DNA from: an uncultured Clostridia bacterium
Lineage (GTDB): Bacteria > Bacillota > Clostridia > Peptostreptococcales > Anaerovoracaceae
Reading direction: 5' to 3'
DNA: 64,000 bases
NCBI GenBank assembly: GCA_944386595.1
Contig: CALXBQ010000046.1
Coordinates: forward strand, 12,998-76,997
Position numbers and translations under genes: made by a program. The stretch's first letter is position 1, and every line of letters starts with the position of its first letter. This document shows, piece after piece, positions 5,456 to 28,317 of the stretch. Below the pieces are notes generated by a model. That model saw nothing but the letters and a program-made list of their open reading frames with translations, was not told the DNA's origin and made no database searches.

Positions 5456-7303
5456 TTAGGCAGCATTTGCAGCGTTATATATCTTCTGAACAGTCTCTGC
5501 AGACACTGCGTTAACACCGCCGATAACGGTCATATCGTACTTCTTTTCCTTTATGATTTTCGAAGCCGCATCAGTATCGTTGACGTTCACCAGAAGCAGC
5601 GGGCATCCGGTATGTGCCGCAAGTGCTCCGCCTGTGAGGGCGTCAGCATAATTGAGGCCGTAAGCTATGTACGCGGTCTTGCCGGCTTTGTTCTCGAAGA
5701 ACTTATCTACAACCATTTCATTGGTTTCATATCTGGTTTCGCCTGCAAGGCGTACAACGTCTGCACTGGCGCCTGTGGTAGTGTCCTCTACGTAATCAAG
5801 ACTTCTGAGATCGCTCTCAACACCTGCACTTACAGCCGTCGTTCCTCCGATTACATAGTACATGTCGTTAACAGATTTTATGCTCTTAAGATATTCGTCC
5901 TGTTCTGCGGTCAATGCGCTTCCTACCAGCAGAACCGGCATTCCGGTAGCGGATACGGAAAGAGCGTCAGGATAATTAAGCCCTGCGCATACGGCAATAT
6001 CCTTTAAATGATTTTCCCCGTTTTCCTTATCGATTTCAGCAATCTGCTTCAGAATCGCAATATTGGTGTCGTATCTGGTTTCTCCTCCAAGTCTTACCTC
6101 GTCGAATTTTTCCACAGCCTTCTCAAAGTCTGCGGACACCGCACTGGTTCCGCCGAGGATGTATACCTTTCCCTGGTAATCCATATGCTTGTTTATGTAT
6201 TCTACAACCATGTCCTCGGTTTCACCGTTTACAAGGAGTATAGGCGCATTCTCAACGTATGCGAGAGCGGTTCCGGAGAGAGCATCCGCAAAATCAGTTC
6301 CATCGGCAACGAGAACGGCGTTGAATCTCTTTCCGCTGAGAGTGTTTCTGAGTTTCTCTGCAACATTGATAGCAGTTTCATATCTGGTAGCGCCGGAAAT
6401 TCTTTCAGCCACTGCAAGAGGCGCATTTCCGCTGCCCCAGGACACAGTACCGAAGATTCCTGATCCGTCTTTGTAAGTAACCGTAACACCTATGACTGCG
6501 CCTTTTGTCTTATCGCTGTCTTCGATTTTGCAGGAAAGTCCGGTTCCGATAGTCTCGGTTTTTCCGTTCTTATCTGCGGTCCATCTTACGTTCACGTAGT
6601 TATTGAGATCAAAATCTTCAGCGGAAAGCACGGTGTTGTAATCCAGTGTTATGCTGTCAATCTTATAGGTTTCGCCGGCAACAGGCTGGGTTGCAGCTTC
6701 TCCCTCACTGTCCACAACCCGGACACTTTTAATGTTCTCAGGATAGTCAACGTACATTATGTGCTTATGGGCAGAGGCCTGGGCATGCAGGCTGATTACG
6801 CCCGTCACGTTCTCCGGAAATCCTTCGGCCGTCATGGTTCCTACCGTTGTCGAAGCCTTTCCGTACTGCTGAACCTCAACGGTCACGCCGTCCTTATCCA
6901 CGGTCCAGTCAAAAGCGCAGATTCCCGAAAGTCCCACAGCCTTCTCACCGGTTCCGCCCAGCTGAGCCTCATACACGGCAGGATCAGCATTAGCGGCACT
7001 GGTCTTCTTCAAAACGAGCTCAAGAGATTTGTCCTGAGAGTAGTTCAGGCTGAAAGTAAGGGTGTTGCCCACTCCGTAGGACTTACAGTTATTCAGGTCC
7101 ACGACGGTGCTGAAGCTGATTCCGTCTTCAATGTCGCCCTTAACCTTTTCGGTAGTTATGCCTTTATCGTCAACAACCACCACGTTAGGGTTCTCATTTT
7201 CGACCTGAGTCGTTTCACCCCAGCCGCTTACAGCAAACACAGGTACGGCACTCGTAACGAGCATGACTGCCGTAACCGCAAAAGCCACGATTTTCTTTTT
7301 CAT
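5456..7303 (-). CDS. secreted cell-wall/S-layer-type protein, variable N-terminal domains + 3x CWB2 anchor (paralog 1)
   Basis: Signal peptide MKKKIVAFAVTAVMLVTSAVPVFA. The C-terminal third has three ~95-aa repeats, each RxSGxTRYETA...ADGTDFADALSG...APILLV (cell wall binding repeat 2 type). Confidence 0.9.
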   Translation of the reverse strand: MKKKIVAFAVTAVMLVTSAVPVFAVSGWGETTQVENENPNVVVVDDKGITTEKVKGDIEDGISFSTVVDLNNCKSYGVGNTLTFSLNYSQDKSLELVLKKTSAANADPAVYEAQLGGTGEKAVGLSGICAFDWTVDKDGVTVEVQQYGKASTTVGTMTAEGFPENVTGVISLHAQASAHKHIMYVDYPENIKSVRVVDSEGEAATQPVAGETYKIDSITLDYNTVLSAEDFDLNNYVNVRWTADKNGKTETIGTGLSCKIEDSDKTKGAVIGVTVTYKDGSGIFGTVSWGSGNAPLAVAERISGATRYETAINVAEKLRNTLSGKRFNAVLVADGTDFADALSGTALAYVENAPILLVNGETEDMVVEYINKHMDYQGKVYILGGTSAVSADFEKAVEKFDEVRLGGETRYDTNIAILKQIAEIDKENGENHLKDIAVCAGLNYPDALSVSATGMPVLLVGSALTAEQDEYLKSIKSVNDMYYVIGGTTAVSAGVESDLRSLDYVEDTTTGASADVVRLAGETRYETNEMVVDKFFENKAGKTAYIAYGLNYADALTGGALAAHTGCPLLLVNVNDTDAASKIIKEKKYDMTVIGGVNAVSAETVQKIYNAANAA

Positions 7304-9061: not shown

Positions 9062-9097
9062 TTCATTTCGTCCTCCTCAATTACATTATACGCATTT

Positions 9098-11911: not shown

Positions 11912-12004
11912 TGATTCCGCTCTTGGAATATCACCAAGCGAAATTAAATGAGATGTTCGATCAATTAAAATGTGTGTCCATTCCTCCGGATATAAATATT
12001 CTGC

Positions 12005-12682: not shown

Positions 12683-12714
12683 AAAATAAAGGACCACATT
12701 TCTGTGATCCTTTA
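12683..12714 (-). terminator. rho-independent terminator downstream of paralog 2
   Basis: Minus strand reads AAAGGAUCACA-GAAA-UGUGGUCCUUU followed by AUUUUA. Confidence 0.6.
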
Positions 12715-12758
12715 TTCCGTCGAAAATCTCTTTTTCTAAAACATTACTTATGTTGCTG

Positions 12759-14675
12759 TTACGCGATTTTCTGAACTGTTGCGTTGGAAACTGCGTTCTC
12801 TCCGCCGATTACAACCAGGCCTACATAGTTAGGACTAGCTTTAACTGCATCGATAGTGTCCTGAGCTGCATCGATATTGTTCTGGTTTACGAGAACCAGA
12901 GGTGCATGATTCTGAGCTGCGAGAACTCCACCAGTAAGAGCGTCGGCATAATCCATTCCAGTAGCTACAAATGCATACTTAGCCGTACTCATATTTAATG
13001 CTGAATCGTAGCTATTGTTATATTTTGCCATTACCATCTGATTGGTTTCATATCTGTCGGCTCCGCCTGTACGAGTTACCGTAGCATCATACAGATCAGT
13101 CTCAGAAAGCTCATCTTTGATATCGTCACTTACAGCATTTCTTCCACCGATAATGTCATAAGTTCTATGACCGCCTCTAGTTAATCCGTGCAGATAGCTT
13201 CTCTGCTCCCTAGTCAGCTCAGTTCCAACAAGAAGAACAGGTTTTCCAGTAGCTGCTGCAGAGAGTGCATCTGGGTAATTAGTTCCAGATGCTACTAAGA
13301 TATTGTCGAGATTTGTCGGGTCAGCTCCAACCACTCCTAAAGCATCATATTCCTGCATAACCTTGATATTGGTGTCATATCTAGTCTCTCCGGCGATTCT
13401 CTCTACGTCAACATTGTACTGTCCGAGACTGTCTTCGAACTCTGCAGATACTGCGTTAGTTCCACCTACAATATAAACAGTGGTTCCTGCATAGCTTGCA
13501 GTGTTCTGATCAATGTATGCTTTTACTTCATCCTCGTAATCGCTATTTACAAGAAGTATCGGTGCATTCATAGCATTAGCCAATGCCGTTACAGAAAGTG
13601 CATCTGCATAGTTGGTTCCGGTAGCTACGAAAATCTTAGTGAAGTTACCAGCGTTGTCCATCTGGTCAGCTACGAGCATAGCTGTTTCGTATCTGTTAGC
13701 TCCTGCCAGTCTGTCATAGATGGCAAGTGGGTTCATATCGCCTCCCCAAGTGTAGGTTCTGAAGATTCCAGAAGTCTGATTGCCTTTTACTTCTAAGGTA
13801 ATATAGCAGCCTTCATAAGTATTATCCAGAAGATTGATATATCTTCCGTCCCAACCAATATAGCCACTACCAGTGTCGATAACCGTAACGTTCCCGTTCT
13901 TGTCAGTTGCCTTCCAAGTAAGATCTGCATAATCAAGCATTTCATCTATGGACACTTCTGTGCCATCGTCAAACGTGATGCTCTCAACTCTGTAAGCTTC
14001 ACCTTTAACTACCTGATCCACAACCTGTTCTCTATCATACTTGTCAAGTTCAACACTCCAATCAGCCGGATCAGCCTTAACAATCTTCACATCAGTAACC
14101 TTAGTAGGTACAGCGTTCTGATAAACAACGGTGTGATAGTCAGTGTTGGTAGCGCTTGCCCAAGGTCTAACTTCTACAGATACAACTGTTACAGGCTCTA
14201 CAGAACCAAGATCCCATCTGAGATAGTCTTCAACTCCTGCACTGGTGCCCTTCTCGTCAACATTCAGGAATACAAATCCGTTGGCAGTATCAACATTCCA
14301 AGAGAAAGTTGTTATGCTCTTTTCAATCGGATTGCCATCATGGTTTGCATTTCCATACTTCCAAACACCATCATTATCAAAGTTTGCGACATAATGGTAT
14401 AAATCACCATTTGTGCCCCTGAGTGTAAGGTCGATTTCCCAGATTCCACTAGTTCTGAGCATATCAACATTAACATCATAGGACTTGTCGGCGCTTATAG
14501 ATTCATTATAGGTGTTCTCAATGCCACCTTTGAGATCATTCGCATCGTCTAGTACAACCGCATTAGCAGTAGGCATATCTACCTTATCAGACGGCTCCCA
14601 GACAGCGAATACAGGTACAGCGCTGGTAACAACCATAGCGGCTGTAACTGCAAAAGCCACAAGTTTCTTTTTCAT
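12759..14675 (-). CDS. secreted cell-wall/S-layer-type protein, variable N-terminus + 3x CWB2 (paralog 2)
   Basis: Signal peptide MKKKLVAFAVTAAMVVTSAVPVFA. Three repeats of RLAGANRYETA...ATGTNYADALS...APILLVN. C-terminus is ...GGENAVSNATVQKIA. Confidence 0.9.
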   Translation of the reverse strand: MKKKLVAFAVTAAMVVTSAVPVFAVWEPSDKVDMPTANAVVLDDANDLKGGIENTYNESISADKSYDVNVDMLRTSGIWEIDLTLRGTNGDLYHYVANFDNDGVWKYGNANHDGNPIEKSITTFSWNVDTANGFVFLNVDEKGTSAGVEDYLRWDLGSVEPVTVVSVEVRPWASATNTDYHTVVYQNAVPTKVTDVKIVKADPADWSVELDKYDREQVVDQVVKGEAYRVESITFDDGTEVSIDEMLDYADLTWKATDKNGNVTVIDTGSGYIGWDGRYINLLDNTYEGCYITLEVKGNQTSGIFRTYTWGGDMNPLAIYDRLAGANRYETAMLVADQMDNAGNFTKIFVATGTNYADALSVTALANAMNAPILLVNSDYEDEVKAYIDQNTASYAGTTVYIVGGTNAVSAEFEDSLGQYNVDVERIAGETRYDTNIKVMQEYDALGVVGADPTNLDNILVASGTNYPDALSAAATGKPVLLVGTELTREQRSYLHGLTRGGHRTYDIIGGRNAVSDDIKDELSETDLYDATVTRTGGADRYETNQMVMAKYNNSYDSALNMSTAKYAFVATGMDYADALTGGVLAAQNHAPLVLVNQNNIDAAQDTIDAVKASPNYVGLVVIGGENAVSNATVQKIA

Positions 14676-14751
14676 TACATCCTCCTTCTCACTTTTTTCA
14701 AAAGTGAACGTGTTTTAGTTTGATAATACAGCAACATAAATTATCGTGATA

Positions 14752-14781
14752 AGAGTACCACAGGCTTCTAAATTTTGTCAA
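14752..14781 (-). promoter_or_regulatory. candidate promoter of paralog 2 (TTGACA-18-TGGTACTCT)
   Basis: Minus strand reads TTGACA (14781-14776), an 18-nt spacer, then TACTCT (14757-14752) preceded by TGG. The leader box AGCAACATAAAT lies at 14730-14741. There is no homopolymer. Confidence 0.4.
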
Positions 14782-15022: not shown

Positions 15023-15061
15023 AAAAACAAAAACAGAACCCCGGTGCGAACCGAGGTTCTG
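15023..15061 (-). terminator. rho-independent terminator ending the paralog 3 transcript
   Basis: Minus strand reads CAGAACCUCGG-UUCGCA-CCGGGGUUCUG followed by UUUUUGUUUUUG. Confidence 0.75.
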
Positions 15062-15234
15062 CAAGAAACACCAACGCGATTTTTCTATGTTGCTGCATTA
15101 TCAAAATCTGACGGAGGTGTTTTCAGCTATTTTTTTCCGAATAAATGTCCGGAATACATATCGAGTCGCGACCACCTAGGTCGCGACTCAATATCCTTGA
15201 AAATCGTTTTTATTAGTCTATTTATGTTGCTATG
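15023..15234 (-). other. conserved structured 3' UTR module of paralog 3
   Basis: In mRNA order: an 8-bp stem GAAAAUCG/CGAUUUUC (15199-15247) encloses the stop codon and box UAGCAACAUAAAU (15220-15232). Next is a 16-bp GC hairpin (15158-15194). Then an inverted pseudo-leader with CACCUCC and UGCAGCAACAUA (15085-15120). The terminator is last. Confidence 0.55.
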
Positions 15235-17205
15235 TTATGCGATTTTCTGAACTGTTGCGTTGGAAACTGCGTTCTCTCCGCCGATTACTACCATACCTGC
15301 GTAGTCAGTATTGTCTGCAACTCTGTCTACAGTATCACTTGCAGGATCTGTTACGTTAGCATTTACAAGAGCCAGAGGTGCACCGTTCTGAGCTGCGAGA
15401 ACTCCTCCAGTTAACGCATCTGGATAATCCATACCGGATGCTACGAATACATACTTAGCGCTGTCTATTGTCGGTACGAACTTATCCATAACCATCATGT
15501 TAGTCTCGTATCTGTTAACGCCACCGACACGAGTTACGCTATTAGCACTGTATGCCTTTTCGAGAAGCTCATCCTTGATGTCATCGCTTACTGCAACTCT
15601 TCCGCCTACAATAACATAATCCACATCACTGTAAGTGCTGATCACATCATGTAAGTAAGTTCTCTGAGCCTTAGTAAGTTCATCACCCACAAGAAGAACT
15701 GGCTTGCCAGTAGCTGCTGCAGAAAGGGCATCTGGATAATCCATTCCGGATGCTACAAGGATCTCTCCCATGCTACCGTTCACCGTACCGATTCCACCCT
15801 TAGTCTCATCATTGTCAAATGCCTTGAGTACTTCGATATTAGTATCGTATCTGGTGTCACCGGCAATTCTCTCTACATCAACTACAAATTTCTTCAGTTC
15901 TTTTTCGAATGATGCAGATACAGCACTAGTTCCGCCTACAATATAAACCTCAGCGTTGTAGCTGGACAGATTAGCCTTGATGTAAGCAGCAACTTCATCT
16001 TCATGAGCTGCATTCACAAGAAGGATAGGTGCATCTACTTTGTTAGCGAGAGCTGTTACAGAAAGTGCATCAGCATAGTTAGTTCCGGTTGCTACGAAGA
16101 TTTTATCAAATCCGGTTCCGTCATTCATCTGGTCAGCAACTTTCATAGCGGTATCATATCTGTCATCACCAGCAATTCTCTGCTGGATTGCGAGAGATTC
16201 AGCATCCTCTCCCCATGTGGTTTCACCAAAGATACCGGAAGTCTTGTTACCGGTAACAGTTAAAGTTACATATGCGCCTTCGTACTTATCCGAAACGTAG
16301 AATTCAGTACCACCATAGCTCTTATCGTTAAGCTTATTTCCGGCAGCATCATACATATTCATTGCTGTTCCGTCTCTCTTGGTAACCTCCCAGCTAAGAT
16401 TTACATATTCTTCAACTGCGTTCTTGTCACCAGTTACATTCTTAACCTCAACCGGATTTCCATTATCATCAACAGTCCATCCGTTGATTACAGTTCCGTC
16501 ATTGAAAGTTATGCTTTTTACAACATACCAATCTTTAATTACCGGCTGATCTACAACCTGAAAATCTCCATATCTGTCAAGTATAGGGGTACCGGTTTTG
16601 TCAGCAAGAACAACTTCCACGCTAGCTACCTCGTCAGGAATCTGATTCTGGTAAACTACCGCAGTACCACTTACATCATTTCCGCCCCATCCTTCGAAAA
16701 CTACTGATTCTACATATTCAACTTCAGGATCAAGCTCTATAACGTAAGTTCTCTCTGTTCCATAAATGCCCTGATCATCGACGATCATTTCTACAAACTT
16801 CGTATCATGGGAAGTGTCAAATCTCCATGTCAAAGTGGTGATTCCACTTACACCGCATAAATCTTCGTTCGCTTCATGGCCTTTGATAAATACATGAGAG
16901 CCCGAATCACGATTTATTCCGAGAATCTGCTGGTATTCCTTGCCGTTGTTTCCTGTCATGTTCAGAACATACTGGTAGCTACCACCCGTTCTGTTCATGT
17001 CAACGGTTATACTATACTCAGCGTCATCAGTGATTTTGGTATGGTTGTAATTTTCAACAATACCGCCCTCCAGATGGGTACTGGTGAGTACGACCTCGTT
17101 ACTTTCAGGCACGCTGTCACCAGTAGCAGTCCAAGCAAGTGCAGGTACAGCGCTGGTGATCACCATAGCGGCTGTAACTGCAAAAGCCACAAGTTTCTTT
17201 TTCAT
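15235..17205 (-). CDS. secreted cell-wall/S-layer-type protein, variable N-terminus + 3x CWB2 (paralog 3)
   Basis: Signal peptide MKKKLVAFAVTAAMVITSAVPALA. Three repeats of RIAGDDRYDTA...ATGTNYADALS...APILLVN. C-terminus is GGENAVSNATVQKIA. Confidence 0.9.
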   Translation of the reverse strand: MKKKLVAFAVTAAMVITSAVPALAWTATGDSVPESNEVVLTSTHLEGGIVENYNHTKITDDAEYSITVDMNRTGGSYQYVLNMTGNNGKEYQQILGINRDSGSHVFIKGHEANEDLCGVSGITTLTWRFDTSHDTKFVEMIVDDQGIYGTERTYVIELDPEVEYVESVVFEGWGGNDVSGTAVVYQNQIPDEVASVEVVLADKTGTPILDRYGDFQVVDQPVIKDWYVVKSITFNDGTVINGWTVDDNGNPVEVKNVTGDKNAVEEYVNLSWEVTKRDGTAMNMYDAAGNKLNDKSYGGTEFYVSDKYEGAYVTLTVTGNKTSGIFGETTWGEDAESLAIQQRIAGDDRYDTAMKVADQMNDGTGFDKIFVATGTNYADALSVTALANKVDAPILLVNAAHEDEVAAYIKANLSSYNAEVYIVGGTSAVSASFEKELKKFVVDVERIAGDTRYDTNIEVLKAFDNDETKGGIGTVNGSMGEILVASGMDYPDALSAAATGKPVLLVGDELTKAQRTYLHDVISTYSDVDYVIVGGRVAVSDDIKDELLEKAYSANSVTRVGGVNRYETNMMVMDKFVPTIDSAKYVFVASGMDYPDALTGGVLAAQNGAPLALVNANVTDPASDTVDRVADNTDYAGMVVIGGENAVSNATVQKIA

Positions 17206-17277
17206 TACATCCTCCTTCTCACTTTGTTAAAGTGATGTTTGCTTTGATTAAGTTTTAGCAACATAAATTTCACAGTA

Positions 17278-17308
17278 AGTATACCCCCCCCCGGTAAATA
17301 TTTGTCAA
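17278..17308 (-). promoter_or_regulatory. sigma-A promoter of paralog 3 with a G9 tract in the spacer
   Basis: Minus strand reads TTGACA (17308-17303), AATATTTACC, G9 (C-run 17284-17292), TATACT (17283-17278). The spacer is 19 nt. An A-rich UP-like stretch lies upstream. Confidence 0.7.
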
Positions 17309-17707: not shown

Positions 17708-17732
17708 AAAAAGAACCGCATCATTGCGGTCC
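17708..17732 (-). terminator. rho-independent terminator ending the paralog 4 transcript
   Basis: Minus strand reads GGACCGCA-AUGA-UGCGGUUC followed by UUUUUGUG. Confidence 0.75.
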
Positions 17733-17900
17733 TTAATTGAAAATCACCCGGCGATTCATTATGTTGCTGCACTATCAAACCGCCGGAGGTGTTTCCCACT
17801 TATTTTGTTATAATCCCGGATACAATATCGAGCCGTGACCTTACGGTCACGACTCAATATCCCTGAAAATCGTTTTTATTAGTCTATTTATGTTGCTATG
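17708..17900 (-). other. conserved structured 3' UTR module of paralog 4
   Basis: Same order as in paralog 3: post-stop box at 17886-17898, GC hairpin at 17825-17860, pseudo-leader / anti-SD at 17759-17795, then the terminator. Confidence 0.55.
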
Positions 17901-19832
17901 TTATGCGATTTTCTGAACTAATTCGTTGGATACTGCATTTTCTCCACCGAATACTACCATTCCGTATGCTGGATCTACAGCCTTAACGATTCTCTTAGCA
18001 GCCTTGTAGTTGCTGTCATTTACGAGTACCAGAGGTGCTCCTTCCTTAGCAGCGAGTACTCCACCAGCAAGTGCATCTGCATAATCGTTTCCGGTTGCTA
18101 CAAATACATAAGCTGCATCCTTGTAGTTAGGAACAAGCTTTTCAACGATGTTTCTGTTGGTTGCATATCTGTCAGCTCCACCGATACGTTCTACCTTCTT
18201 AGCATCAGCGATGTAGCTTCTTCCAGCAAGCTCGTTAAGGATGTTGCCGTTAACTGCAGTTGTTCCACCGAGAACCTTGATGTTCTTTACTGCGTAGTTT
18301 ACACCATCAGTGAGGTCTTCTCTTAAGAATTCTCTCTGATCCTTAGTCAGTCTATCACCAACAAGAAGTACAGGATATCCAGTTGCGGATGCAGAGAGTG
18401 CATCTGCATAATTGGTACCGGTAGCTACAAGGAGTGTTCTCATTCCATCATGATATCCGGTTCCAAGATTATTTGTCACCTCATCGTATGCCTTAAGCAC
18501 TTCAAGGTTAGTATCATATCTGTTGTCGCCTGCAAGTCTTTCAACATCTACGTCGAGCTTATAGAGCTTATCGGTAAATGCCTTGGATACAGCTTCATAT
18601 CCACCGATTACATAAACGTTAACATTGTAGCTAGCAGCATTGTCCATGATGTAATCTGCAACTGTATCTTCAGTTCCTGCGTTTACAAGAAGTATAGGCG
18701 CACCAATCGCCTTAGCAAAAGCTGTAGCGGACAGAGCATCTGCATACTGGTTAGCATTTCCTGTAGCAACAACATAGTTGGTGAATCCCTTTGCAAGCTT
18801 CATCTCATCAGCGATTGCCATAGCAGTTTCAAATCTGTCAGCACCTGCGATTCTGTCCATAATAGCGAGTGCGGAAGCATCATCACCCCATGTACCGTCG
18901 GTAAATATTCCGGAAGCCTTTTTTGCAACTGCCTTCAATGTAACATACTTACCCTTATAGCCATCTTTCACGGTAAATACATTAGATGCACTTTCTCCAT
19001 GATTAGTACCATCTGAATTAGTGATTACCCACTTGTAGTCAGCATATTTTGAAATCTCACCACCGTTCCACTTATAGGAACCATCTTTGTCAAGATTGTA
19101 GTTGGAAATTACAGTCTCATCATCAAAGGTAATGCTGTAAATAGCGTAAGTTTCTCCTATTACTGGCTGATCAGCAAACTGAAGCTTACCATATTTATCC
19201 AACTCAGGAACTCCAGCTTCAGTTGACTTAATTACCTGAACATCTACAATCTTGCTAGGAAGCTGCTCATCATAAACGATAGCCTGATGTCCATCCTTTA
19301 CATCTCCGTCCCAACCTTCGAACACTACGTTTTCAACGGATTCTACTTCCTTATCGAGTTTGATAGTGAACACCTCGTCAACGCCCTTTGTTCCCTGGTT
19401 GTCCACTTCTAAGTAGAGATATTTCTGATTAGGATCTCCGGCAATGTCAAACTTCCAGGTAAGAGTAGTAATCGCTGCAGGAACGGCAACATTCTTTCCC
19501 GAATCAACTACGCTCAAACCTTTTGCACCGAGACTGGTATCAATTGCCAATACCTCATCATACTTCTGTCCCTGGTTACCTACCATGTTGATAGCATACC
19601 TGAAGGTACCCTTTGTTCTCAAGAAGTCAACATTAACGGTGTAGGTATCACCGTCACTAATTGTGGTTCCGGTCTGGGAAATACCGCCCTTGAGATGAGT
19701 GTTGTCGATGAGCACCTCATTTGTCTCAGGCATGGTCTGGGTATTGTCCGGACCCCAAACAGCGAATGCAGGTACAGCGCTTGTTACAATCATAGCGGCT
19801 GTAACTGCAAAAGCCACAAGTTTCTTTTTCAT
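17901..19832 (-). CDS. secreted cell-wall/S-layer-type protein, variable N-terminus + 3x CWB2 (paralog 4)
   Basis: Signal peptide MKKKLVAFAVTAAMIVTSAVPAFA. Three repeats of RIAGADRFETA...ATGNANQYADALS...APILLVN. C-terminus is GGENAVSNELVQKIA. Confidence 0.9.
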   Translation of the reverse strand: MKKKLVAFAVTAAMIVTSAVPAFAVWGPDNTQTMPETNEVLIDNTHLKGGISQTGTTISDGDTYTVNVDFLRTKGTFRYAINMVGNQGQKYDEVLAIDTSLGAKGLSVVDSGKNVAVPAAITTLTWKFDIAGDPNQKYLYLEVDNQGTKGVDEVFTIKLDKEVESVENVVFEGWDGDVKDGHQAIVYDEQLPSKIVDVQVIKSTEAGVPELDKYGKLQFADQPVIGETYAIYSITFDDETVISNYNLDKDGSYKWNGGEISKYADYKWVITNSDGTNHGESASNVFTVKDGYKGKYVTLKAVAKKASGIFTDGTWGDDASALAIMDRIAGADRFETAMAIADEMKLAKGFTNYVVATGNANQYADALSATAFAKAIGAPILLVNAGTEDTVADYIMDNAASYNVNVYVIGGYEAVSKAFTDKLYKLDVDVERLAGDNRYDTNLEVLKAYDEVTNNLGTGYHDGMRTLLVATGTNYADALSASATGYPVLLVGDRLTKDQREFLREDLTDGVNYAVKNIKVLGGTTAVNGNILNELAGRSYIADAKKVERIGGADRYATNRNIVEKLVPNYKDAAYVFVATGNDYADALAGGVLAAKEGAPLVLVNDSNYKAAKRIVKAVDPAYGMVVFGGENAVSNELVQKIA

Positions 19833-19902
19833 TACATCCTCCTTCTCACTTTATAAAAGTGATGTTTGCTTGATTAAGTTTAGCAACATAAATTTCACAG
19901 TA

Positions 19903-19933
19903 AGTATACCCCCCCCCGGTAAATATTTGTCAA
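19903..19933 (-). promoter_or_regulatory. sigma-A promoter of paralog 4 with a G9 tract in the spacer
   Basis: TTGACA (19933-19928), 19-nt spacer with C-run 19909-19917, TATACT (19908-19903). Confidence 0.7.
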
Positions 19934-20785: not shown

Positions 20786-20983
20786 AGAAATCACCTGGCG
20801 ATTTATCTATGTTGCTGCACTATCAAATCACCGGAGGTGTTTCTTGTTATTAAATTTCGCCGCGCAAAACCCGCAGCCTCGTTAATCTCAATAATTCCTG
20901 AGACAATATCGAGCCGCGACCTTCCTGGCCGCGACTCAATATACTGAAAATCGTGTTTACTTTAGTCTATTTATGTTGCTATG
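20755..20983 (-). other. conserved structured 3' UTR module of paralog 5
   Basis: Post-stop box at 20969-20981, GC hairpin at 20906-20942, pseudo-leader / anti-SD at 20807-20845, then the terminator. Confidence 0.55.
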
Positions 20984-22933
20984 TTATGCGATTTTCTGAA
21001 CTAATTCGTTGGATACTGCATTTTCTCCACCGATTACTACAAGTCCTGCATAGTTGGAATTAGATCCTGTGTTAACCATCTCAATGATGTCCTTAGCAGG
21101 GTCGATTTCGCTGTTGTTTACCAGTACGAGCGGTGCACCATTGTGTGCAGCCAGTGCTCCACCGGTAAGTGCGTCTGCATAATCGTTTCCAGTTGCAACG
21201 AATACATACTTAGCAGAACCCTTATTTTCAACGAACTTTTCCATAACCATCATGTTGGTTTCAAATCTGTCAGCTCCGCCTATTCTGGTTACGCTCTTTG
21301 CTTTGTAAGCTTTAGAGGAAAGTTCATCTTTTACATCATCGCTTACAGCATTTCTTCCGCCAATGATTGTGTAGTTTCTCTGATCTGCTGCTTCGCTATT
21401 AATCTCATAGATATAATTTCTCTGCTCCTTTGTAAGCGCATCTCCTACCAGAAGAACCGGCTTGCCAGTAGCAGCTGCAGAAAGTGCATCTGGGAAATTA
21501 TTACCGGAAGCTACGAGAATATCAAACATATCTCCGTCTGCTCCTATACCTTCTGGTGCCTTGTTATCAAATGCCTTCAGAACCGCAATGTTAGTTGCAT
21601 ATCTGTCAGCACCTGCAATTCTGTCTACATCTACTGCGAACTTCTTAAGCGCTGTTTCAAAGTCTGCGGATACAGCCTTTTCTCCACCAACGATATACAC
21701 GTTAGCATTGTAATTTGCTGCGTTATCCTTAATGTACTGTGCTACTTTTTCTTCATAATCGCCATTTACCAGAAGAACCGGTGCGCCTACTTTATCAGCA
21801 AGTGCGGTTACAGAAAGTGCATCTGCGTAGTTAGCTCCTGTAGCTACGAAAATGTTGGTAAATCCGTCTGCTGGCTTCATCTGATCAGCAACCTTTATAG
21901 CGGTTTCATATCTGTCAGCGCCAGCGATTCTCTGCTGAATAGCAATGGATTCTGCATCTTCACCCCATGTTGCCTCGCCGAAAATACCAGAAGTCTTGTT
22001 GCCGGAAACAGTAGCCGTTACATATGCACCCTTGTAATTGTCGTTGTTAACTTCGAAGTGAACATTCTTAGAAAGATTTTCTAACTTAACTTCTGTACCG
22101 TCTCTCTTAGTAACTGCCCAGTTATAGTTAACATACTCTCCTACATCACCAGTGTAACCCGTTACCTTTCCGTCTTTGATGACAAAGTTACTAATTTCAG
22201 TTCCATCATTAAAGGTGATGCTGTTAACCACATACTTTCCACCGAAAACCGGCTGGTCTACTACCTGAACTCTGCCATATTTATCAAGGTCAGGAATCCA
22301 TCCGGTCATTTCGTTCACTCCATTTACATACTCAGCCTTAACTACTTCTACGTCAGTTACATATTCAGGAACCTGATCCTGGTAAATGGTAGTAGTATCG
22401 CTAGCAGCACCAGCTTTGTAACCATCTCTGTTAACAACCGATACGGATACTACTTCTTCTGCTTCTGTTGGGAGATCCCACTCAAGGTAAGTATCTACAG
22501 CCGTTGTAGTATTCAGTGAGTCAACATTAAGAAAAATCTTCTTGGCTTTTTCGCTTACTTCCCAAGAGAAAGTAGTGATTCCCGTATTGATAGTCTTGTG
22601 TGATCCAGGTACACCGCCCTTCCAAACCTGATCATTATCAAATACAGCCTTTGTTGTGATAATCTTATCCTTATTGGTTCTCAGGTCAAGACTTAAAACA
22701 TAGTTACCACTGGTCTTTAACAGGTCAACGGTAACACCGTAGGTAGCACCTTCTGTTATAGAGGCTTCAATCTCGTTAGTGATTCCGCCTTTAAGGGTAT
22801 CCTTATCGAGAACAACTGCATTGGCTTCAGGCCAATCAGCCTGTCCTGCAGGACCCCACTCAGCAAATACAGGTACAGCGCTGGTTACTACCATAGCGGC
22901 TGTAACTGCAAAAGCCACAAGTTTCTTTTTCAT
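20984..22933 (-). CDS. secreted cell-wall/S-layer-type protein, variable N-terminus + 3x CWB2 (paralog 5)
   Basis: Signal peptide MKKKLVAFAVTAAMVVTSAVPVFA. Three repeats of RIAGADRYETA...ATGANYADALS...APVLLVN. C-terminus is GGENAVSNELVQKIA. Confidence 0.9.
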   Translation of the reverse strand: MKKKLVAFAVTAAMVVTSAVPVFAEWGPAGQADWPEANAVVLDKDTLKGGITNEIEASITEGATYGVTVDLLKTSGNYVLSLDLRTNKDKIITTKAVFDNDQVWKGGVPGSHKTINTGITTFSWEVSEKAKKIFLNVDSLNTTTAVDTYLEWDLPTEAEEVVSVSVVNRDGYKAGAASDTTTIYQDQVPEYVTDVEVVKAEYVNGVNEMTGWIPDLDKYGRVQVVDQPVFGGKYVVNSITFNDGTEISNFVIKDGKVTGYTGDVGEYVNYNWAVTKRDGTEVKLENLSKNVHFEVNNDNYKGAYVTATVSGNKTSGIFGEATWGEDAESIAIQQRIAGADRYETAIKVADQMKPADGFTNIFVATGANYADALSVTALADKVGAPVLLVNGDYEEKVAQYIKDNAANYNANVYIVGGEKAVSADFETALKKFAVDVDRIAGADRYATNIAVLKAFDNKAPEGIGADGDMFDILVASGNNFPDALSAAATGKPVLLVGDALTKEQRNYIYEINSEAADQRNYTIIGGRNAVSDDVKDELSSKAYKAKSVTRIGGADRFETNMMVMEKFVENKGSAKYVFVATGNDYADALTGGALAAHNGAPLVLVNNSEIDPAKDIIEMVNTGSNSNYAGLVVIGGENAVSNELVQKIA

Positions 22934-23004
22934 TACATCCTCCTTCTCACTTTTGCAAGTGATGTTTGCTTTGATTAAGTTTTAGCAACATAAATTTCAC
23001 AGTA

Positions 23005-23034
23005 AGTATACCCCCCCCGGTAAATATTTGTCAA
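23005..23034 (-). promoter_or_regulatory. sigma-A promoter of paralog 5 with a G8 tract in the spacer (the only 18-nt spacer)
   Basis: TTGACA (23034-23029), 18-nt spacer with C-run 23011-23018 (8 C), TATACT (23010-23005). Confidence 0.7.
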
Positions 23035-23662: not shown

Positions 23663-23969
23663 TCGTTCGAAAATCCCTTGTGGCTTTTGCTTTATGTTGC
23701 TGCATAAACTTAATCACTGGGAGATTTTCCTTGTTTTGTTTTCGTGGGGTATCCCCCCGAAAGGACAAAGTGTGCCGCCCGGATCTTCGGCATCCGGGTT
23801 ATGAGCCCGACGCGCTTACCAGCACCGGCCTGTCGCTTGCCTCAAGCGTTCTGTAATCTTCCTCCTGTCTTTTCGGTGAGACACTTTTTATATAATATCG
23901 AGCCGCGGGCATTAACTCCGCGACTCGATATCTTTTGAAAATCGTGTTTACTTTAGTCTATTTATGTTG
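23634..23969 (-). other. conserved structured 3' UTR module of paralog 6 (longer variant)
   Basis: Post-stop box at 23960-23972 overlaps the TAG stop. GC hairpin at 23895-23931. Pseudo-leader at 23691-23735, where TTTATGTTGCTGCATAAACTTAATCA mirrors the 5' leader TTTATGTTGCTAAAACTTAATCA. Confidence 0.55.
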
Positions 23970-25820
23970 CTACTGTCCTACTACGATTTCCTGAACCAAT
24001 TCGTTGGAAACTGCAGCCGTTCCACCGAATACGAAGATTCTGCCCTCACTAGCAACACCTTCACTTGCGATAATGTAGTTAGCAGTTTCAACGTTGTTAT
24101 TGTTTACCAATGCCAGAGGGTAAGGACCATAAGCTGCGGCATTTGCTGCGGCAACGAGACCGTCTGCAAAATCATCGCCCGTCGCTACGTATACAGCAGG
24201 TGTAGAATTCCACTTATCAGAGAATGCCTGATATACTCTCTCATTAGTTGTATATCTGTTATCTCCTGCCACTCTTACAACATCAGTCAGTACATTTGCT
24301 ACATATTCTCCACTCTGCAGTTCACCGAACAAATCAGCACTTACAGCATTGGTGCCACCAATTACGTAGTACTTGTCATTCTGTCCGAGAGAGCCTAAGA
24401 ACTTTCTCTGTGCACTGTTAAGGCTGTCACCTACCAGAAGCACTGGTTCTCCGGTTGCAGCTGCTGAAAGAACATCTGCATACGAGGTTCCAGATGCAAC
24501 GAGTATTTCAGCTGAAGAATCTATTTCCAGCTCATCGAGTACTGCAAGATTTGTTACATATCTATCTGCACCCGCAAGTCTCTCTACATCAGCGTATCTA
24601 TAAAGAGCATCTTCAAAACCCTGAGAAACGACGCTGGTTCCACCGATGATGTAAATCTTGGTTCCATTATAAGTTGCATTTGCATTTATAAAGTCTACGA
24701 CTGCCTCTTCATAATCGTCATTTACCAGAAGTACTGGATATTTTTTCTCAGCTGCAAGTGCAACTGCAGAAAGTGCATCAGGATAATCCGCACCGCTTGC
24801 AATTACAACTCCACCGAACTTCTGTCCTGACTGCAATGTTGCTTTCGCAAGATTCATCGCAGTTTCATATCTGTTAGCACCTGCATAACGTGTAAATCTT
24901 GCAAGAGCCTCAGAGTCAGCACCCCAAACTACTTCATCGAATACTCCAGTTCCTGCCTTACCGGATACCACTGCAGTAATCTTATGTCCCTGATCGTCAG
25001 CGGTTGGAGTGTACTTAACGTCTGTACCAACAACAGTAACACCATCTCTCAGCCAGGCGATATCAGTGTATGTTTTAATATCATCGGCTGTCGTAAGCTT
25101 GGTATCAGCTGTCAGTGTAACTTCGCTTATAGTGAGTTCCTGTCCGAGAACGGCCTGAGTAGCCTCAACATATTCAGGAACAGTATAACTTGCTCCCTGT
25201 CTTGCGGCCTCTATAGGGTCGTATTCTTCATTCTTAACGATAACCTTGAGGCTTTCTACGTTTTCCGGATGCTCATAATACATAGTCATTGCGACATCTC
25301 CGCCTGCATTGAAGTGAGAAATCCAGTCAGCTCCTTCAGCAAGTCCAAGCTTCTTTGTGGTTACTTTTGGGGTCTGAAGCCCAAGTTCAATAACCGATAC
25401 ATCCACTCCGTATTCAGATACATCGTACACAAGTTCAATCATTCCCTTGGTGTTAGAAACTATCTGTTCACCATTCACAGTGATATTAGATCCTGTGCTC
25501 CAACCACGAACAACGGTTGAAATCTGATCCTTCTGAGTACCATTTTCCTTGTCGGCAAAGAATAAATCGTACTGATAATAGTGTCCCTCTCCAGGACCCT
25601 TGTTTAAATCAATCACCTGACTGAAGTGAGCACCATCAGCAGCAGGGCCAGCTACAGCATAAGTTGCCCTATTCTCACCTGCATTTAAGGTGATCACATT
25701 TGGATTCGGATTAGTCGTCGGAGTAGTCGGCTTATCCGTCCAGTCTACAGCAAATACAGGTACAGCGCTGGTGATTATCATAGCTGCCGTAACTGCAAAA
25801 GCTACAAGTTTCTTTTTCAT
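23970..25820 (-). CDS. secreted cell-wall/S-layer-type protein, variable N-terminus + 3x CWB2 (paralog 6)
   Basis: Signal peptide MKKKLVAFAVTAAMIITSAVPVFA. Three repeats of RYAGANRYETA...ASGADYPDALS...YPVLLVN. The N-terminal type resembles paralog 1 (MYYEHPENVESL vs MYVDYPENIKSV). Confidence 0.9.
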   Translation of the reverse strand: MKKKLVAFAVTAAMIITSAVPVFAVDWTDKPTTPTTNPNPNVITLNAGENRATYAVAGPAADGAHFSQVIDLNKGPGEGHYYQYDLFFADKENGTQKDQISTVVRGWSTGSNITVNGEQIVSNTKGMIELVYDVSEYGVDVSVIELGLQTPKVTTKKLGLAEGADWISHFNAGGDVAMTMYYEHPENVESLKVIVKNEEYDPIEAARQGASYTVPEYVEATQAVLGQELTISEVTLTADTKLTTADDIKTYTDIAWLRDGVTVVGTDVKYTPTADDQGHKITAVVSGKAGTGVFDEVVWGADSEALARFTRYAGANRYETAMNLAKATLQSGQKFGGVVIASGADYPDALSAVALAAEKKYPVLLVNDDYEEAVVDFINANATYNGTKIYIIGGTSVVSQGFEDALYRYADVERLAGADRYVTNLAVLDELEIDSSAEILVASGTSYADVLSAAATGEPVLLVGDSLNSAQRKFLGSLGQNDKYYVIGGTNAVSADLFGELQSGEYVANVLTDVVRVAGDNRYTTNERVYQAFSDKWNSTPAVYVATGDDFADGLVAAANAAAYGPYPLALVNNNNVETANYIIASEGVASEGRIFVFGGTAAVSNELVQEIVVGQ

Positions 25821-25888
25821 TACATCCTCCTTCTCACTTTGTTAAAGTGATGTTTGCTTATTAGTTTAGCAACATAAATTTCACAGTA

Positions 25889-26069: not shown

Positions 26070-26301
26070 AGTAATGAAAATCACATGTGGCTTTGAAATT
26101 TATGTTGCTGTAATATGCGATTTTCGGATGTGTTTTGTGAAGCGGCGCTCCACTTGAAACCTGCGGCTTTTGTCCGATATGCACGCGGCAAGTTTCAAAA
26201 GAAGCACTTGCGTTTATATGATACCGAGCCGCTGACCTTTCGGCCGCGGCCCGGTATTTCTTTAGAAAATCGTTTTCTATTCGTTTATGATTATGTTGCT
26301 A
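26033..26301 (-). other. conserved structured 3' UTR module of paralog 7 (diverged)
   Basis: Post-stop box variant TTATGTTGCTA at 26291-26301. Hairpin at 26221-26257. Second box AATTTATGTTGCTGTAA at 26098-26114, followed by TATGCGATTTTCGGA, which looks like a decayed copy of a gene 3' end. Confidence 0.45.
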
Positions 26302-28242: not shown

Positions 28243-28317
28243 TACATCCTCCTTCTCACTTATCTCTAAGTGAATGTTTGCTTTGATTTAAAATAGCAAC
28301 ATAATTTGTTCTCTGTA

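What the first reader, a model, noticed from the sequence alone, without database searches (positions are those of the whole stretch)
15220..17268. 13-nt box at the mRNA 5' end is the exact reverse complement of a box placed right after the stop codon, repeated around every paralog
Plus-strand TAGCAACATAAAT lies a few nt downstream of the -10 element on the coding strand, at the predicted 5' end of the leader. Positions are 17256-17268, 19881-19893, 22983-22995 and 25867-25879. Variants lie at 28294-28305 and 14730-14741.

Its reverse complement ATTTATGTTGCTA sits 2 nt past the stop codon, or overlapping it. Positions are 15220-15232, 17886-17898, 20969-20981 and 23960-23972. Variants lie at 26291-26301 and 12748-12757.

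Each gene is therefore bracketed by 13-bp inverted repeats. Each intergenic promoter segment is bracketed as well. Tandem duplication alone does not explain a conserved inverted relationship.

Three readings are possible:
- 5'-3' end pairing of the mRNA, for stability or translational control;
- trans pairing between the 3' UTR of one paralog and the leaders of the others, giving cross-silencing or mutually exclusive expression;
- recombinase target sites for inversion of gene or promoter segments. No recombinase gene lies in this window.
Basis: seen in the sequence. Interest (0 to 1): 0.8.

Follow-up and report, generated by a model that had tools for sequence, protein, structure and literature searches.

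The report
Leader/3'UTR antisense boxes, surface-protein array
Every gene in a tandem array of cell-wall-anchored surface proteins has a short sequence at the start of its mRNA that is the exact complement of sequences in its 3' untranslated region; this most likely acts through RNA-RNA pairing rather than as a DNA-flipping switch, and the array also carries a separate poly-G promoter switch.

Summary
The box occurs 8 times exactly and 8 times as a variant, against 1.3 expected by chance. It brackets six tandem minus-strand CWB2 surface-protein genes. A seventh paralog has neither box.

The boxes are conserved in 15 further contigs from one narrow clade of uncultured Firmicutes.

The DNA-inversion reading found no support:
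- All 39 array promoters and about 40 genes are co-oriented.
- No promoter is joined to a reverse-complemented gene end.
- The first promoter has no upstream partner box.
- No recombinase lies in the window or in the neighbouring loci.

The evidence fits RNA pairing better:
- Both boxes lie inside the predicted transcript.
- Twelve base pairs hold in all 11 distinct gene types, with two compensatory swaps and G·U wobbles.
- The post-stop copy sits in a conserved hairpin loop.

It sits at the apex of a hairpin just before the true terminator. In g2 to g4 it is a 23-27 bp antisense copy of the leader of the last paralog, which lacks poly-G.

A G7-G9 tract in the promoter spacer is the likelier on/off switch.

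I read this as a new variant of 5'/3'-UTR and mRNA-mRNA interaction. It is unproven. Interest is about 0.55.

The parts
12759..14675 (-). g1, the last gene of the array ('T1' type): a CWB2 surface protein of 638 aa
   Evidence: ORF; three PF04122 domains, 1e-54
15235..17205 (-). g2, CWB2 surface protein, 656 aa
   Evidence: matches Cwp8, Cwp6 and SlpA in the PDB
17901..19832 (-). g3, CWB2 surface protein, 643 aa
20984..22933 (-). g4, CWB2 surface protein, 649 aa
23970..25820 (-). g5, CWB2 surface protein, 616 aa; its TAG stop codon lies inside the box
26302..28242 (-). g6, the first gene of the array ('T6' type), 646 aa
14729..14741 (-). Leader box of g1 (ATTTATGTTGCTG). It sits in the loop of the GAUAAU/AUUAUC hairpin at 14718-14748; 30 nt here are invariant in all strains
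17256..17268 (-). Leader box of g2 (ATTTATGTTGCTA)
19881..19893 (-). Leader box of g3
22983..22995 (-). Leader box of g4
25867..25879 (-). Leader box of g5
28294..28306 (-). Leader box of g6 (variant AATTATGTTGCTA); no partner box lies upstream of it
12722..12771 (-). g1 post-stop module: stem GAAAAUC/GAUUUUC enclosing the stop codon and the anti-box CAGCAACAUAAG (12746-12758)
15199..15247 (-). g2 post-stop module: stem GAAAAUCG/CGAUUUUC with the anti-box 15220-15232 in the loop
17865..17913 (-). g3 post-stop module, anti-box 17886-17898
20946..20996 (-). g4 post-stop module, anti-box 20969-20981
23937..23991 (-). g5 post-stop module, anti-box 23960-23972; the stem is kept as GGAAAUCG/CGAUUUUC although the end of the coding sequence differs
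26265..26314 (-). g6 post-stop module, anti-box 26289-26301 (variant that forms 14 bp with the g6 leader)
15067..15121 (-). Inner hairpin of the g2 3' UTR, anti-box at the apex (15085-15094); antisense to the g1 leader (-32.6 kcal/mol)
17745..17791 (-). Inner hairpin of the g3 3' UTR, anti-box 17759-17768; antisense to the g1 leader (-37.1 kcal/mol; 29-nt inverted repeat with 14718-14746)
   Evidence: I1
20787..20843 (-). Inner hairpin of the g4 3' UTR, anti-box 20807-20816; antisense to the g1 leader (-34.5 kcal/mol)
23689..23717 (-). Inner element of the g5 3' UTR; antisense to the type A leader (box plus AACUUAAUCA; -23 kcal/mol)
   Evidence: I13, I14
26076..26125 (-). Inner module of the g6 3' UTR (a degenerate copy of the post-stop module). 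A 19-nt inverted repeat links it to the g5 leader 204 nt away (-23 kcal/mol)
   Evidence: I6
17711..17734 (-). Intrinsic terminator of g3, directly after the inner hairpin. Equivalents: 15033-15062 (g2), 20760-20785 (g4), 23632-23663 (g5), 26039-26068 (g6), 12683-12716 (g1)
   Evidence: (covarying stem)
17278..17308 (-). g2 promoter TTGACA-N10-G9-TATACT (19-nt spacer). The same promoter lies at 19903-19933 (g3), 25889-25919 (g5) and 28318-28348 (g6)
23005..23034 (-). g4 promoter with G8 (18-nt spacer); the only poly-G promoter that passes the sigma-70 spacing scan
14752..14781 (-). g1 promoter without poly-G (TTGACA-N18-TACTCT, preceded by TGG)
17220..17234 (-). Leader hairpin 2 just upstream of the ribosome-binding site; it covaries across genes (CACUU/AAGUG, CACCC/GGGUG, CACCU/AGGUG)
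5456..7303 (-). g0, a seventh CWB2 paralog outside the array with neither box; serves as a negative control

Best explanation
The boxes are most likely RNA-RNA pairing elements, not DNA recombination sites.

**Anatomy.** Each array gene is transcribed from its own promoter. The mRNA starts with the box (A)UUUAUGUUGCU(A/G) within its first 20 nt or so. Its 3' UTR carries the complementary 'anti-box' up to twice:
1. Once directly after the stop codon, in a loop closed by GAAAAUCG/CGAUUUUC.
2. In every gene except the last, once more at the apex of a long hairpin placed just before the real intrinsic terminator.

**Inferred mechanism.** The post-stop copy pairs with the 5' end of the same mRNA over 13-14 bp. 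This would be a long-range 5'/3'-UTR interaction of the kind shown for B. subtilis hbs, tying mRNA stability or translation to ribosome traffic; a terminating ribosome would cover the post-stop copy.

The inner hairpins act on the leaders of other paralogs. In g2, g3 and g4 they are 23-27 bp antisense copies of the leader hairpin of the last gene, g1. That gene is the only array member whose promoter lacks the poly-G tract. Transcription of any switchable paralog would therefore down-regulate the 'default' paralog.

On/off choice of the switchable paralogs would come from slippage of the G7-G9 tract in the promoter spacer, not from inversion.

**Shown versus inferred.**
- Shown: the sequence complementarity, its conservation and covariation, the predicted hairpin context, and the uniform DNA orientation.
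- Inferred: that the RNAs actually pair, and what that pairing does.
For: **1. Real and conserved.** 16 matches against 1.3 expected. Both boxes are present at every array gene in 15 related contigs. The one paralog that lacks the leader box also lacks the 3' box.

**2. The unit is the transcript.** The first gene has a leader box but no upstream partner. The last gene has a 3' box but no downstream gene.

**3. Both boxes are predicted to be transcribed.** The leader box begins 10-12 nt after the -10 hexamer in all three promoter and leader types. Canonical terminators lie after the inner element.

**4. Complementarity is maintained.** In 11 distinct leader/3' pairs, 12 consecutive pairs are never broken. 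Two pairs show changes on both sides (U-A to A-U; A-U to G-C), and three cells are U·G, which would be mismatches in a DNA inverted repeat. Paired cells are 83% in register against 28-53% when the partner is slid. 0 of 500 shuffles reach the covariation score.

**5. Own-type duplexes are best for the two divergent types.** The g6 type gives -16.6 against -13.9 to -15.2; the g1 type gives -19.3 against -14.8.

**6. Hairpin presentation.** The post-stop anti-box lies in a conserved stem-closed loop in all types, including g5, where the end of the coding sequence differs. The inner anti-box lies at a hairpin apex followed by a terminator whose stem covaries. The g1 leader box lies in a hairpin loop.

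**7. The inner elements of g2-g4 match the g1 leader far better than any other leader.** Duplexes are -32.6 to -37.1 kcal/mol against -15 to -22 for other leaders. The 30 nt of the g1 leader that they match are invariant across all strains, while the sequence further downstream varies. g1 itself has no inner element.

**8. Substitutions favour wobble.** Differences between the inner elements and a perfect anti-g1 sequence are mostly wobble-compatible transitions: 29 against 5, or about 8 against 1 distinct sites in the central region. About 55% would be expected from base composition.

**9. The leader is under RNA-structure selection.** Hairpin 2 covaries.

**10. Precedent.** A 14-nt, AU-rich (-19 kcal/mol) 5'/3'-UTR interaction in B. 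subtilis hbs was validated by compensatory mutation (PMC5737220). icaR shows a comparable interaction (PMC3868564). hly-prsA2 is an mRNA-mRNA interaction (PMC8722363).
Against: - There are no transcript data. Transcription start sites, 3' ends and pairing are all predictions.
- All sequences come from one narrow clade in which the core is invariant. Covariation therefore rests on two pairs and a few wobbles among related sequences, and the shuffle control ignores that relatedness.
- The 13-bp duplex is AU-rich (-14 to -16 kcal/mol). It spans about 2 kb of translated mRNA, and in type A leaders it competes with a weak local hairpin.
- The inner elements match the g1 leader on both sides of the core, including a few bases that are probably upstream of the transcription start. 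This points to origin by inverted DNA duplication, so the complementarity could be inherited rather than selected.
- The first 3' hairpin may terminate part of the transcripts before the inner element.
- An anti-box common to all paralogs cannot by itself distinguish self from non-self.
Confidence: 0.45

Rival explanations
1. Inherited relic with no present function. An ancestral gene acquired inverted copies of its leader segment in its 3' region. Tandem duplication then copied the whole unit, and gene conversion among paralogs keeps all non-coding flanks alike.
For: - The whole promoter, leader and first 60 nt or so of the 3' UTR are highly similar among paralogs, not only the box.
- The inner elements match the g1 leader on both sides of the core and up to about 60 nt in one class (L003 12176), which looks like copying of DNA.
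- The array is visibly plastic: deletions, a 28-nt tandem duplication and Bro-N insertions.
Against: - The 10-nt core is an island that survives in the g1 and g6 types, where the surrounding leader and 3' sequences have diverged.
- The flanking pairs changed in a compensatory way.
- Substitutions are biased towards wobble-compatible ones.
- The anti-boxes are consistently placed in hairpin loops.
- The invariant 30 nt of the g1 leader coincide with the antisense match.
Confidence: 0.2
2. DNA inversion sites. A recombinase encoded elsewhere in the genome flips promoter segments or whole genes between inverted boxes, as in invertons or shufflons, giving phase variation.
For: - Inverted repeats bracket 5 of 6 promoter segments and all 6 genes.
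- A 19-nt inverted repeat lies 204 nt apart around the g5 promoter, and a 27-nt imperfect repeat lies about 340 nt apart around the g1 promoter.
- Surface proteins of this domain family are known to be switched this way: cwpV has 21-bp inverted repeats around 195 bp, with RecV encoded elsewhere (PMC2784873).
Against: - 30 of 30 poly-G promoters and 9 of 9 g1-type promoters are in the same orientation as their gene, across the window and related contigs.
- 42 canonical promoter-box-leader junctions were found, and none in which a real promoter is joined to a reverse-complemented gene end. The one flagged case is the fossil g6 inner module.
- All array genes are co-oriented. The only inverted fragment (L010 430-1790) has breakpoints away from any box.
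- The first promoter has no partner box.
- No recombinase lies in the window or in the neighbour tables.
- The box is short and has no dyad of half-sites.
- U·G positions are mismatches at the DNA level.
- The poly-G tract already provides a switch.
Confidence: 0.12
3. Operator for a DNA-binding regulator. An asymmetric 10-bp site (TTATGTTGCT) is bound in either orientation at +5 of each promoter and at the gene ends, for example by a repressor that loops or spreads.
For: The core is invariant, lies at a classic repressor position just downstream of the transcription start, and occurs 2-3 times per gene.
Against: - It does not explain the compensatory and wobble changes in flanking positions.
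- It does not explain the strict orientation rule: sense in leaders and antisense in every 3' copy.
- It does not explain placement in RNA hairpin loops upstream of terminators.
- It does not explain the 23-27-nt extended antisense matches.
Confidence: 0.08
4. Terminal inverted repeats of a non-autonomous mobile gene cassette (leader plus gene) that was inserted behind resident promoters.
For: Perfect 13-bp inverted repeats bound a promoterless leader-plus-gene unit.
Against: - No target-site duplication: the flanks are GTGAA and AGACT.
- No transposase nearby.
- The position relative to the -10 hexamer and the stop codon is fixed, and the array is explained by tandem duplication.
Confidence: 0.03

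Closest known systems
B. subtilis hbs mRNA 5'/3'-UTR long-range interaction (PMC5737220)
   Same: - A Firmicute and a very highly expressed gene.
- A fully complementary, AU-rich stretch of about 14 nt in the 5' UTR and in the 3' UTR upstream of the terminator, with modest free energy (-19 kcal/mol there; -14 to -19 here).
- Proposed to link mRNA decay to translation.
   Different: - The 5' element here lies at the very 5' end, and the 3' element lies 2 nt after the stop codon.
- The pair is repeated on every member of a tandem paralog family.
- A second antisense copy is present.
- Nothing has been tested experimentally.
S. aureus icaR 5'/3'-UTR pairing (PMC3868564, cited in PMC5737220)
   Same: A 3' UTR motif pairs with the 5' UTR of the same mRNA to control translation and decay. 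The stems of the inner hairpins here contain CCUCC, the complement of the ribosome-binding site GGAGG.
   Different: The main complementarity here is to the 5'-terminal box, not to the ribosome-binding site. The CCUCC is predicted to be buried in a stem.
Listeria hly 3'UTR - prsA2 5'UTR mRNA-mRNA interaction (PMC8722363), and 3'UTR-derived antisense regulators in general
   Same: The 3' UTR of one mRNA carries extended complementarity to the 5' UTR of another gene's mRNA. The layout is hairpin plus terminator.
   Different: - Here the partners are paralogs of one family.
- The antisense element is an inverted copy of the target leader (23-27 bp).
- The predicted outcome is repression or hierarchy among variants, not co-activation.
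Invertible switches for surface proteins: C. difficile cwpV/RecV (PMC2784873); M. agalactiae Vpma/Xer1 (PMC2268961); M. penetrans mpl promoter inversions (from my own knowledge: Horino et al. 2003)
   Same: Surface-protein genes, including the CWB2 family. Short inverted repeats flank promoter-bearing or regulatory segments, and the recombinase can be encoded far away.
   Different: No orientation polymorphism in 39 promoters, one promoter unbracketed, all genes co-oriented, and repeats of only 13 nt.
Promoter-spacer homopolymer phase variation (from my own knowledge: M. hyorhinis vlp poly-A; Neisseria porA and opc poly-G/C)
   Same: A homopolymer lies between -35 and -10 of each member of a surface-protein family. 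Its length varies among strains (G7, G8, G9), giving spacers of 17-19 nt.
   Different: This concerns the poly-G tract, not the boxes. I am not aware of a description for CWB2 or S-layer-like arrays in Firmicutes.

Membership tests
Inverton / invertible promoter switch | Inverted repeats flank a promoter-bearing or regulatory segment | tested here: met
   5 of 6 intergenic promoter segments are bracketed. The first one (upstream of g6) is not.
Inverton / invertible promoter switch | Both orientations of the segment occur among cells, strains or assemblies | tested here: not met
   39 of 39 promoters are in the gene-proximal orientation, and there are no true recombinant junctions in the window or in the related contigs. 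Only consensus assemblies were examined; read-level data were not available.
Inverton / invertible promoter switch | A site-specific recombinase (tyrosine or serine) is available | tested here: inconclusive
   None in the 64-kb window or in the neighbouring gene tables of the fetched loci. The rest of the genome could not be searched.
Shufflon / multi-site inversion system (Rci, HvsR, Xer1 types) | Family members lie in both orientations because segments flip between multiple sites | tested here: not met
   All array genes are co-oriented in every contig. The partly inverted fragment in L010 has breakpoints that are not at boxes.
5'/3'-UTR long-range interaction (hbs and icaR type) | At least 10 nt or so of complementarity between the 5' UTR and 3' UTR of the same transcript | tested here: met
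   13-14 bp in every array gene, -14.3 to -19.3 kcal/mol.
5'/3'-UTR long-range interaction (hbs and icaR type) | Both elements lie inside the transcript (after the transcription start, before the terminator) | tested here: inconclusive
   Met by prediction only. The box lies 10-12 nt after the -10 hexamer, and canonical terminators lie downstream of both anti-boxes. No RNA data are available.
5'/3'-UTR long-range interaction (hbs and icaR type) | Pairing is maintained in evolution (compensatory changes) | tested here: met
   12 pairs are never broken in 11 distinct types. Two pairs changed on both sides and three cells are U·G. The slid controls collapse. The sample is small and the sequences are related.
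5'/3'-UTR long-range interaction (hbs and icaR type) | Mutating one side changes expression or stability, and a compensatory mutation restores it | not testable with these tools
   Needs an experiment.
3'UTR-borne antisense / mRNA-mRNA regulator | Extended complementarity of a 3' UTR element to the 5' UTR of another gene, with the target site conserved | tested here: met
   The inner elements of g2-g4 form 23-27 bp with the g1 leader, -32.6 to -37.1 kcal/mol. The matched 30 nt of the g1 leader are invariant across strains.
3'UTR-borne antisense / mRNA-mRNA regulator | The pairing region is exposed in a loop and followed by an intrinsic terminator | tested here: met
   Minimum-free-energy folds of all 15 distinct inner elements put the anti-box at the hairpin apex. 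The terminator stem covaries. These are predictions only.
Promoter-spacer slipped-strand phase variation (side finding) | A homopolymer inside the -35/-10 spacer whose length varies among strains | tested here: met
   G9 x21, G8 x7, AG7 x1, G6AGG x1. Orthologous promoters differ in length. Only the G8 promoter passes the 16-18 nt spacer scan in the window.

The most novel reading that the evidence does not exclude
The array may be a two-layer antigenic-variation circuit.

- **Layer 1:** poly-G slippage in each promoter spacer turns individual surface-protein paralogs on or off.
- **Layer 2:** every switchable paralog carries, in its 3' UTR, an antisense copy of the leader of the terminal paralog, which has a constitutive-looking promoter. 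Any 'on' variant would then silence the default coat protein through an mRNA-mRNA (kissing-loop) interaction.

The post-stop/5'-end pairing would additionally close each mRNA on itself in a translation-sensitive way. This would be RNA-enforced hierarchical or mutually exclusive expression within a bacterial surface-protein family.
Probability: 0.2. Interest if true: 0.8.

Novelty: new variant of a known kind. Interest (0 to 1): 0.55.

Why it matters
Bacteria usually vary surface coats by DNA inversion, gene conversion or repeat slippage.

If the boxes act as RNA pairing elements, this locus would show a different layer of control. The 3' UTRs of paralogous surface-protein mRNAs would talk to the 5' ends of the same and of sister mRNAs. 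This could set which coat protein is made once a poly-G promoter switch has fired.

It would extend the few validated bacterial 5'/3'-UTR and mRNA-mRNA interactions (hbs, icaR, hly-prsA2) to a whole gene family. It would also give a defined, mutable 13-nt element to test.

There is a caution for inverton-finding pipelines as well: short inverted repeats around promoters of surface genes are not by themselves evidence of an invertible switch.

Tried and rejected
- **Genome scan with g2 peptides:** no relatives found. The variable N-terminal words are strain-specific.
- **JGI metagenome scan** with the promoter-proximal 20-mer: two matches with no promoter or leader context around them, so read as chance. 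This organism is not in that collection.
- **Rfam**, at a permissive threshold, on the array: only two sub-threshold snoRNA matches, which are noise.
- **RNAalifold on the inner elements:** it recovered only the terminator, because indels misalign the long hairpin. I relied on single-sequence folds instead.
- **RNAduplex on whole leaders against whole 3' UTRs:** it gave meaningless long interior-loop solutions. I redid it on 35-45-nt windows.
- **Upstream ORF starting at the ATG inside the box:** frame and length are not conserved among leader variants. Rejected.
- **Resemblance of ...CGCATAA-CATAGC-AACATAAAT to a Xer/dif site:** the two 'arms' are direct repeats, not inverted (my inspection). 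Rejected.
- **The 14-nt exact inverted repeat between the g5 inner element and the signal-peptide coding sequence** (I25): about 0.6 such matches are expected by chance in 17.5 kb (my arithmetic). Not used.
- **The inverted gene fragment in L010** as evidence of box-mediated inversion: its breakpoints lie in the coding sequence and after a terminator, next to a Bro-N insertion, not at boxes. Rejected.
- **More divergent relatives with a different box sequence:** every contig I fetched belongs to the same narrow clade with an invariant core. The decisive comparative test could not be made.


Full report
**1. What is in the window**

Bases 12.7-28.3 kb hold six tandem genes on the minus strand. 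They encode 616-656-aa proteins with a signal peptide, a highly variable N-terminal half and three C-terminal CWB2 cell-wall-binding repeats. The repeats match C. difficile Cwp8, Cwp6 and the SlpA high-molecular-weight subunit in the PDB. I call the genes g6 (first transcribed) to g1 (last):

| Gene | Coordinates |
|---|---|
| g6 | 26302-28242 |
| g5 | 23970-25820 |
| g4 | 20984-22933 |
| g3 | 17901-19832 |
| g2 | 15235-17205 |
| g1 | 12759-14675 |

A seventh paralog, g0 (5456-7303), lies beyond a low-GC island. The only database relatives come from uncultured Firmicutes MAGs and metagenomes.

**2.

The 13-mer with up to 2 mismatches occurs 16 times against 1.34 expected; 0 of 100 shuffles reach that number.

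On the mRNA strand the leader box ATTTATGTTGCTA begins 10 nt after the -10 hexamer. Its complement begins 2 nt after TAA, or contains the TAG stop codon of g5.

The six pairs are copies of one ancestral pair, so the recurrence itself carries no independent weight. Even one such pair is unlikely by chance, at about 1e-4 by my arithmetic.

The 10-nt core is an island of identity in the g1 and g6 types, whose neighbouring leader and 3' sequences have diverged. g0, which lacks the leader box, also lacks the 3' box.

**3.

- **A second anti-box in each non-terminal 3' UTR.** It lies 130-270 nt after the stop codon. The canonical intrinsic terminators lie after this inner copy, so both copies are predicted to be in the mRNA.
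- **Poly-G promoters.** The promoters of g2-g6 are TTGACA-AATATTTACC-Gn-TATACT. In the window n = 9 for four promoters (19-nt spacer) and n = 8 for g4. g4 is the only one that passes a 16-18-nt spacer scan.
- **A different promoter for g1.** It has no poly-G tract.

**4. Related loci**

I fetched 15 related contigs: ENA and Logan assemblies of separate samples plus two contigs of one GTDB representative MAG. The loci are syntenic (PTA_PTB-SKI-CpXC-ScpB on one side; g0-QueT-SUF on the other) and carry arrays of 3-8 paralogs.

Every array gene with an intact promoter region has both boxes. A g1-type gene is always last, has the promoter without poly-G, and lacks the inner element.

Poly-G length differs between orthologous promoters: G9 x21, G8 x7, AG7 x1 and an interrupted G6AGG x1.

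**5. DNA inversion finds no support**

- All 30 poly-G promoters and all 9 g1-type promoters point at their gene.
- There are 42 canonical promoter-box-leader junctions and 39 canonical gene-end-box-3'-module junctions. No real promoter is joined to a reverse-complemented gene end. The one flagged case is the fossil-like g6 inner module.
- All array genes are co-oriented. The only inverted piece, in L010, has breakpoints inside the coding sequence and after a terminator, next to an inserted Bro-N gene, not at boxes.
- The promoter of the first gene has no upstream partner box.
- No recombinase is present in the window or in any neighbour table.
- The box has no dyad of half-sites.

Consensus assemblies cannot exclude rare inversion. 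In systems where several promoters are controlled by inversion, I would expect some assemblies to capture the other orientation.

**6. RNA pairing fits better**

*The bracketed unit is the transcript.* The first gene keeps its leader box and the last gene keeps its 3' box.

*Pairing is maintained.* I aligned 11 distinct leader/3' pairs in register. Twelve consecutive pairs are never broken. The two edge pairs changed on both sides: U-A to A-U in the g6 type, and A-U to G-C in the g1 type. Three cells are U·G, which would be mismatches in DNA. Sliding the partner by 1-3 columns drops pairing from 83% to 28-53%. No shuffle of 500 reaches the covariation score. The caveat is that the sequences are few and related.

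*Own-type duplexes are strongest for the two divergent types*.

*The post-stop anti-box sits in a conserved loop.* The loop is closed by GAAAAUCG (the last codons) and CGAUUUUC in every type, including g5, where the end of the coding sequence differs.

*The inner anti-box sits at the apex of a long hairpin.* This holds in 15 of 15 distinct sequences. The hairpin is followed by a terminator whose stem covaries.

*The g1 leader box lies in the loop of a 5'-proximal hairpin*.

*The leader is under RNA-structure selection.* Leader hairpin 2, next to the ribosome-binding site, covaries: CACUU/AAGUG, CACCC/GGGUG, CACCU/AGGUG.

**7. The inner elements**

In g2, g3 and g4 (and their orthologs) the inner elements are inverted copies of the g1 leader. 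They form 23-27 contiguous pairs at -32.6 to -37.1 kcal/mol, against -15 to -22 with type A leaders.

The g5 and g6 inner elements match type A leaders over 15-22 nt, at about -23 kcal/mol.

The 30 nt of the g1 leader that are matched are invariant in all strains, while its downstream part varies.

Differences between the inner elements and a perfect anti-g1 sequence are mainly A-to-G changes opposite U. There are 29 wobble-compatible transitions against 5 incompatible ones. That is about 8 against 1 distinct sites in the central part, where about 55% compatible would be expected from composition. My binomial estimate is roughly p = 0.04, and the events are not fully independent.

The match covers both sides of the core. 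In one class it extends to about 60 nt. The elements therefore arose by inverted duplication of leader DNA, not by crossover within the box. Whether they were kept for function is inferred, not shown.

**8. Proposed mechanism**

This is inference. Confidence that the boxes act at the RNA level is about 0.45.

- The post-stop anti-box pairs with the 5' end of its own mRNA. This would be a translation-sensitive long-range interaction like the 14-nt, AU-rich, -19 kcal/mol interaction of B. subtilis hbs, which was validated by compensatory mutations (PMC5737220, which also cites icaR, PMC3868564).
- The inner hairpins act in trans on sister leaders, above all on the g1 leader. This is analogous to the hly 3'UTR-prsA2 5'UTR interaction (PMC8722363).
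- The on/off choice of g2-g6 would come from poly-G slippage in the promoter spacer.

**9. Rivals**

| Rival explanation | Confidence |
|---|---|
| Inherited relic kept alike by gene conversion | 0.2 |
| Recombinase-mediated inversion | 0.12 |
| Orientation-independent operator for a DNA-binding regulator | 0.08 |
| Terminal repeats of a mobile cassette | 0.03 |

The evidence for and against each is given in the structured sections of this report.

**10. Comparison with known systems and verdict**

The locus resembles inverton-controlled surface genes such as cwpV (21-bp inverted repeats around 195 bp, RecV elsewhere; PMC2784873). It fails the defining test of orientation polymorphism.

It meets the sequence-level criteria of a 5'/3'-UTR interaction and of a 3'UTR-borne antisense element. 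The functional criteria are untested.

I rate it a new variant of a known kind, with interest about 0.55. The finding is genuine, conserved and has an unusual architecture. It sits in an uncultured organism and its mechanism rests on prediction.

Noticed in passing
window 17284-17292, 19909-19917, 23011-23018, 25895-25903, 28324-28332 (poly-G inside the promoters): Five of the six array promoters have a G8/G9 tract in the -35/-10 spacer, giving 18-19-nt spacers. Tract length differs between orthologous promoters of other strains (G7-G9, and one interrupted tract). This is a candidate slipped-strand phase-variation switch for a CWB2 surface-protein family.
   Followed up: partly
window 5456-7303 and 12759-14675: g0 (outside the array, no boxes) and g1 (last in the array) share a -10 context without poly-G (GTGGTACTCT). 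They look like constitutively expressed members, unlike g2-g6.
   Followed up: partly
window 7434-12499: A low-GC (35-37%) island lies between g0 and g1. It carries a CapP-like M78 peptidase (padloc capP, 4e-27), a TPR protein and ORFs with no family hit. In other strains the same slot holds different cargo (FRG+AAA_23+RloB; Mrr_cat+AAA_13; DUF1848+nSTAND3), so it looks like a defence-island hotspot.
   Followed up: partly
window 23350-23427 (minus strand), with plus-strand promoter 23235-23263 and terminator 23318-23351: A 25-aa hydrophobic ORF (MSDYEILVIVLMIMGLIRWDNHRKK) lies in the g5-g4 spacer. It faces a strong antisense promoter (11 of 12 consensus positions) and a terminator. The layout resembles a type I toxin-antitoxin pair. 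It has no Pfam hit.
   Followed up: partly
window 28610-28920: An array of about 8-9 GGCCCGCA/TGCGGGCC palindromic motifs (three 90-nt imperfect repeats) lies just upstream of the first array promoter. It could be a regulator-binding array or REP-like elements.
   Followed up: partly
window 15158-15194, 17822-17860 and equivalents after each post-stop module: A 16-17-bp near-perfect GC-rich hairpin without a clear U tract follows each post-stop module. Its stem covaries among genes (GUCGUGACC/GGUCACGGC, GUCGCGGCC/GGUCGCGGC, GUCGCCGG/CCGGCGGC). It could be a processing site, a stabiliser or a partial terminator.
   Followed up: partly
L010 1-3300 and L015 8690-10100: A Bro-N-domain gene is inserted within the array in two strains. 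In L010 it is accompanied by a partly inverted g5-type gene. In L015 a promoter deletion ends inside the leader box.
   Followed up: partly
L007 5230-5310; L004 15470-15507: Natural variants. One deletion fuses the poly-G tract directly to leader hairpin 2, removing the -10 hexamer and the box. Another strain has a 28-nt tandem duplication of the box plus the start of the leader.
   Followed up: no
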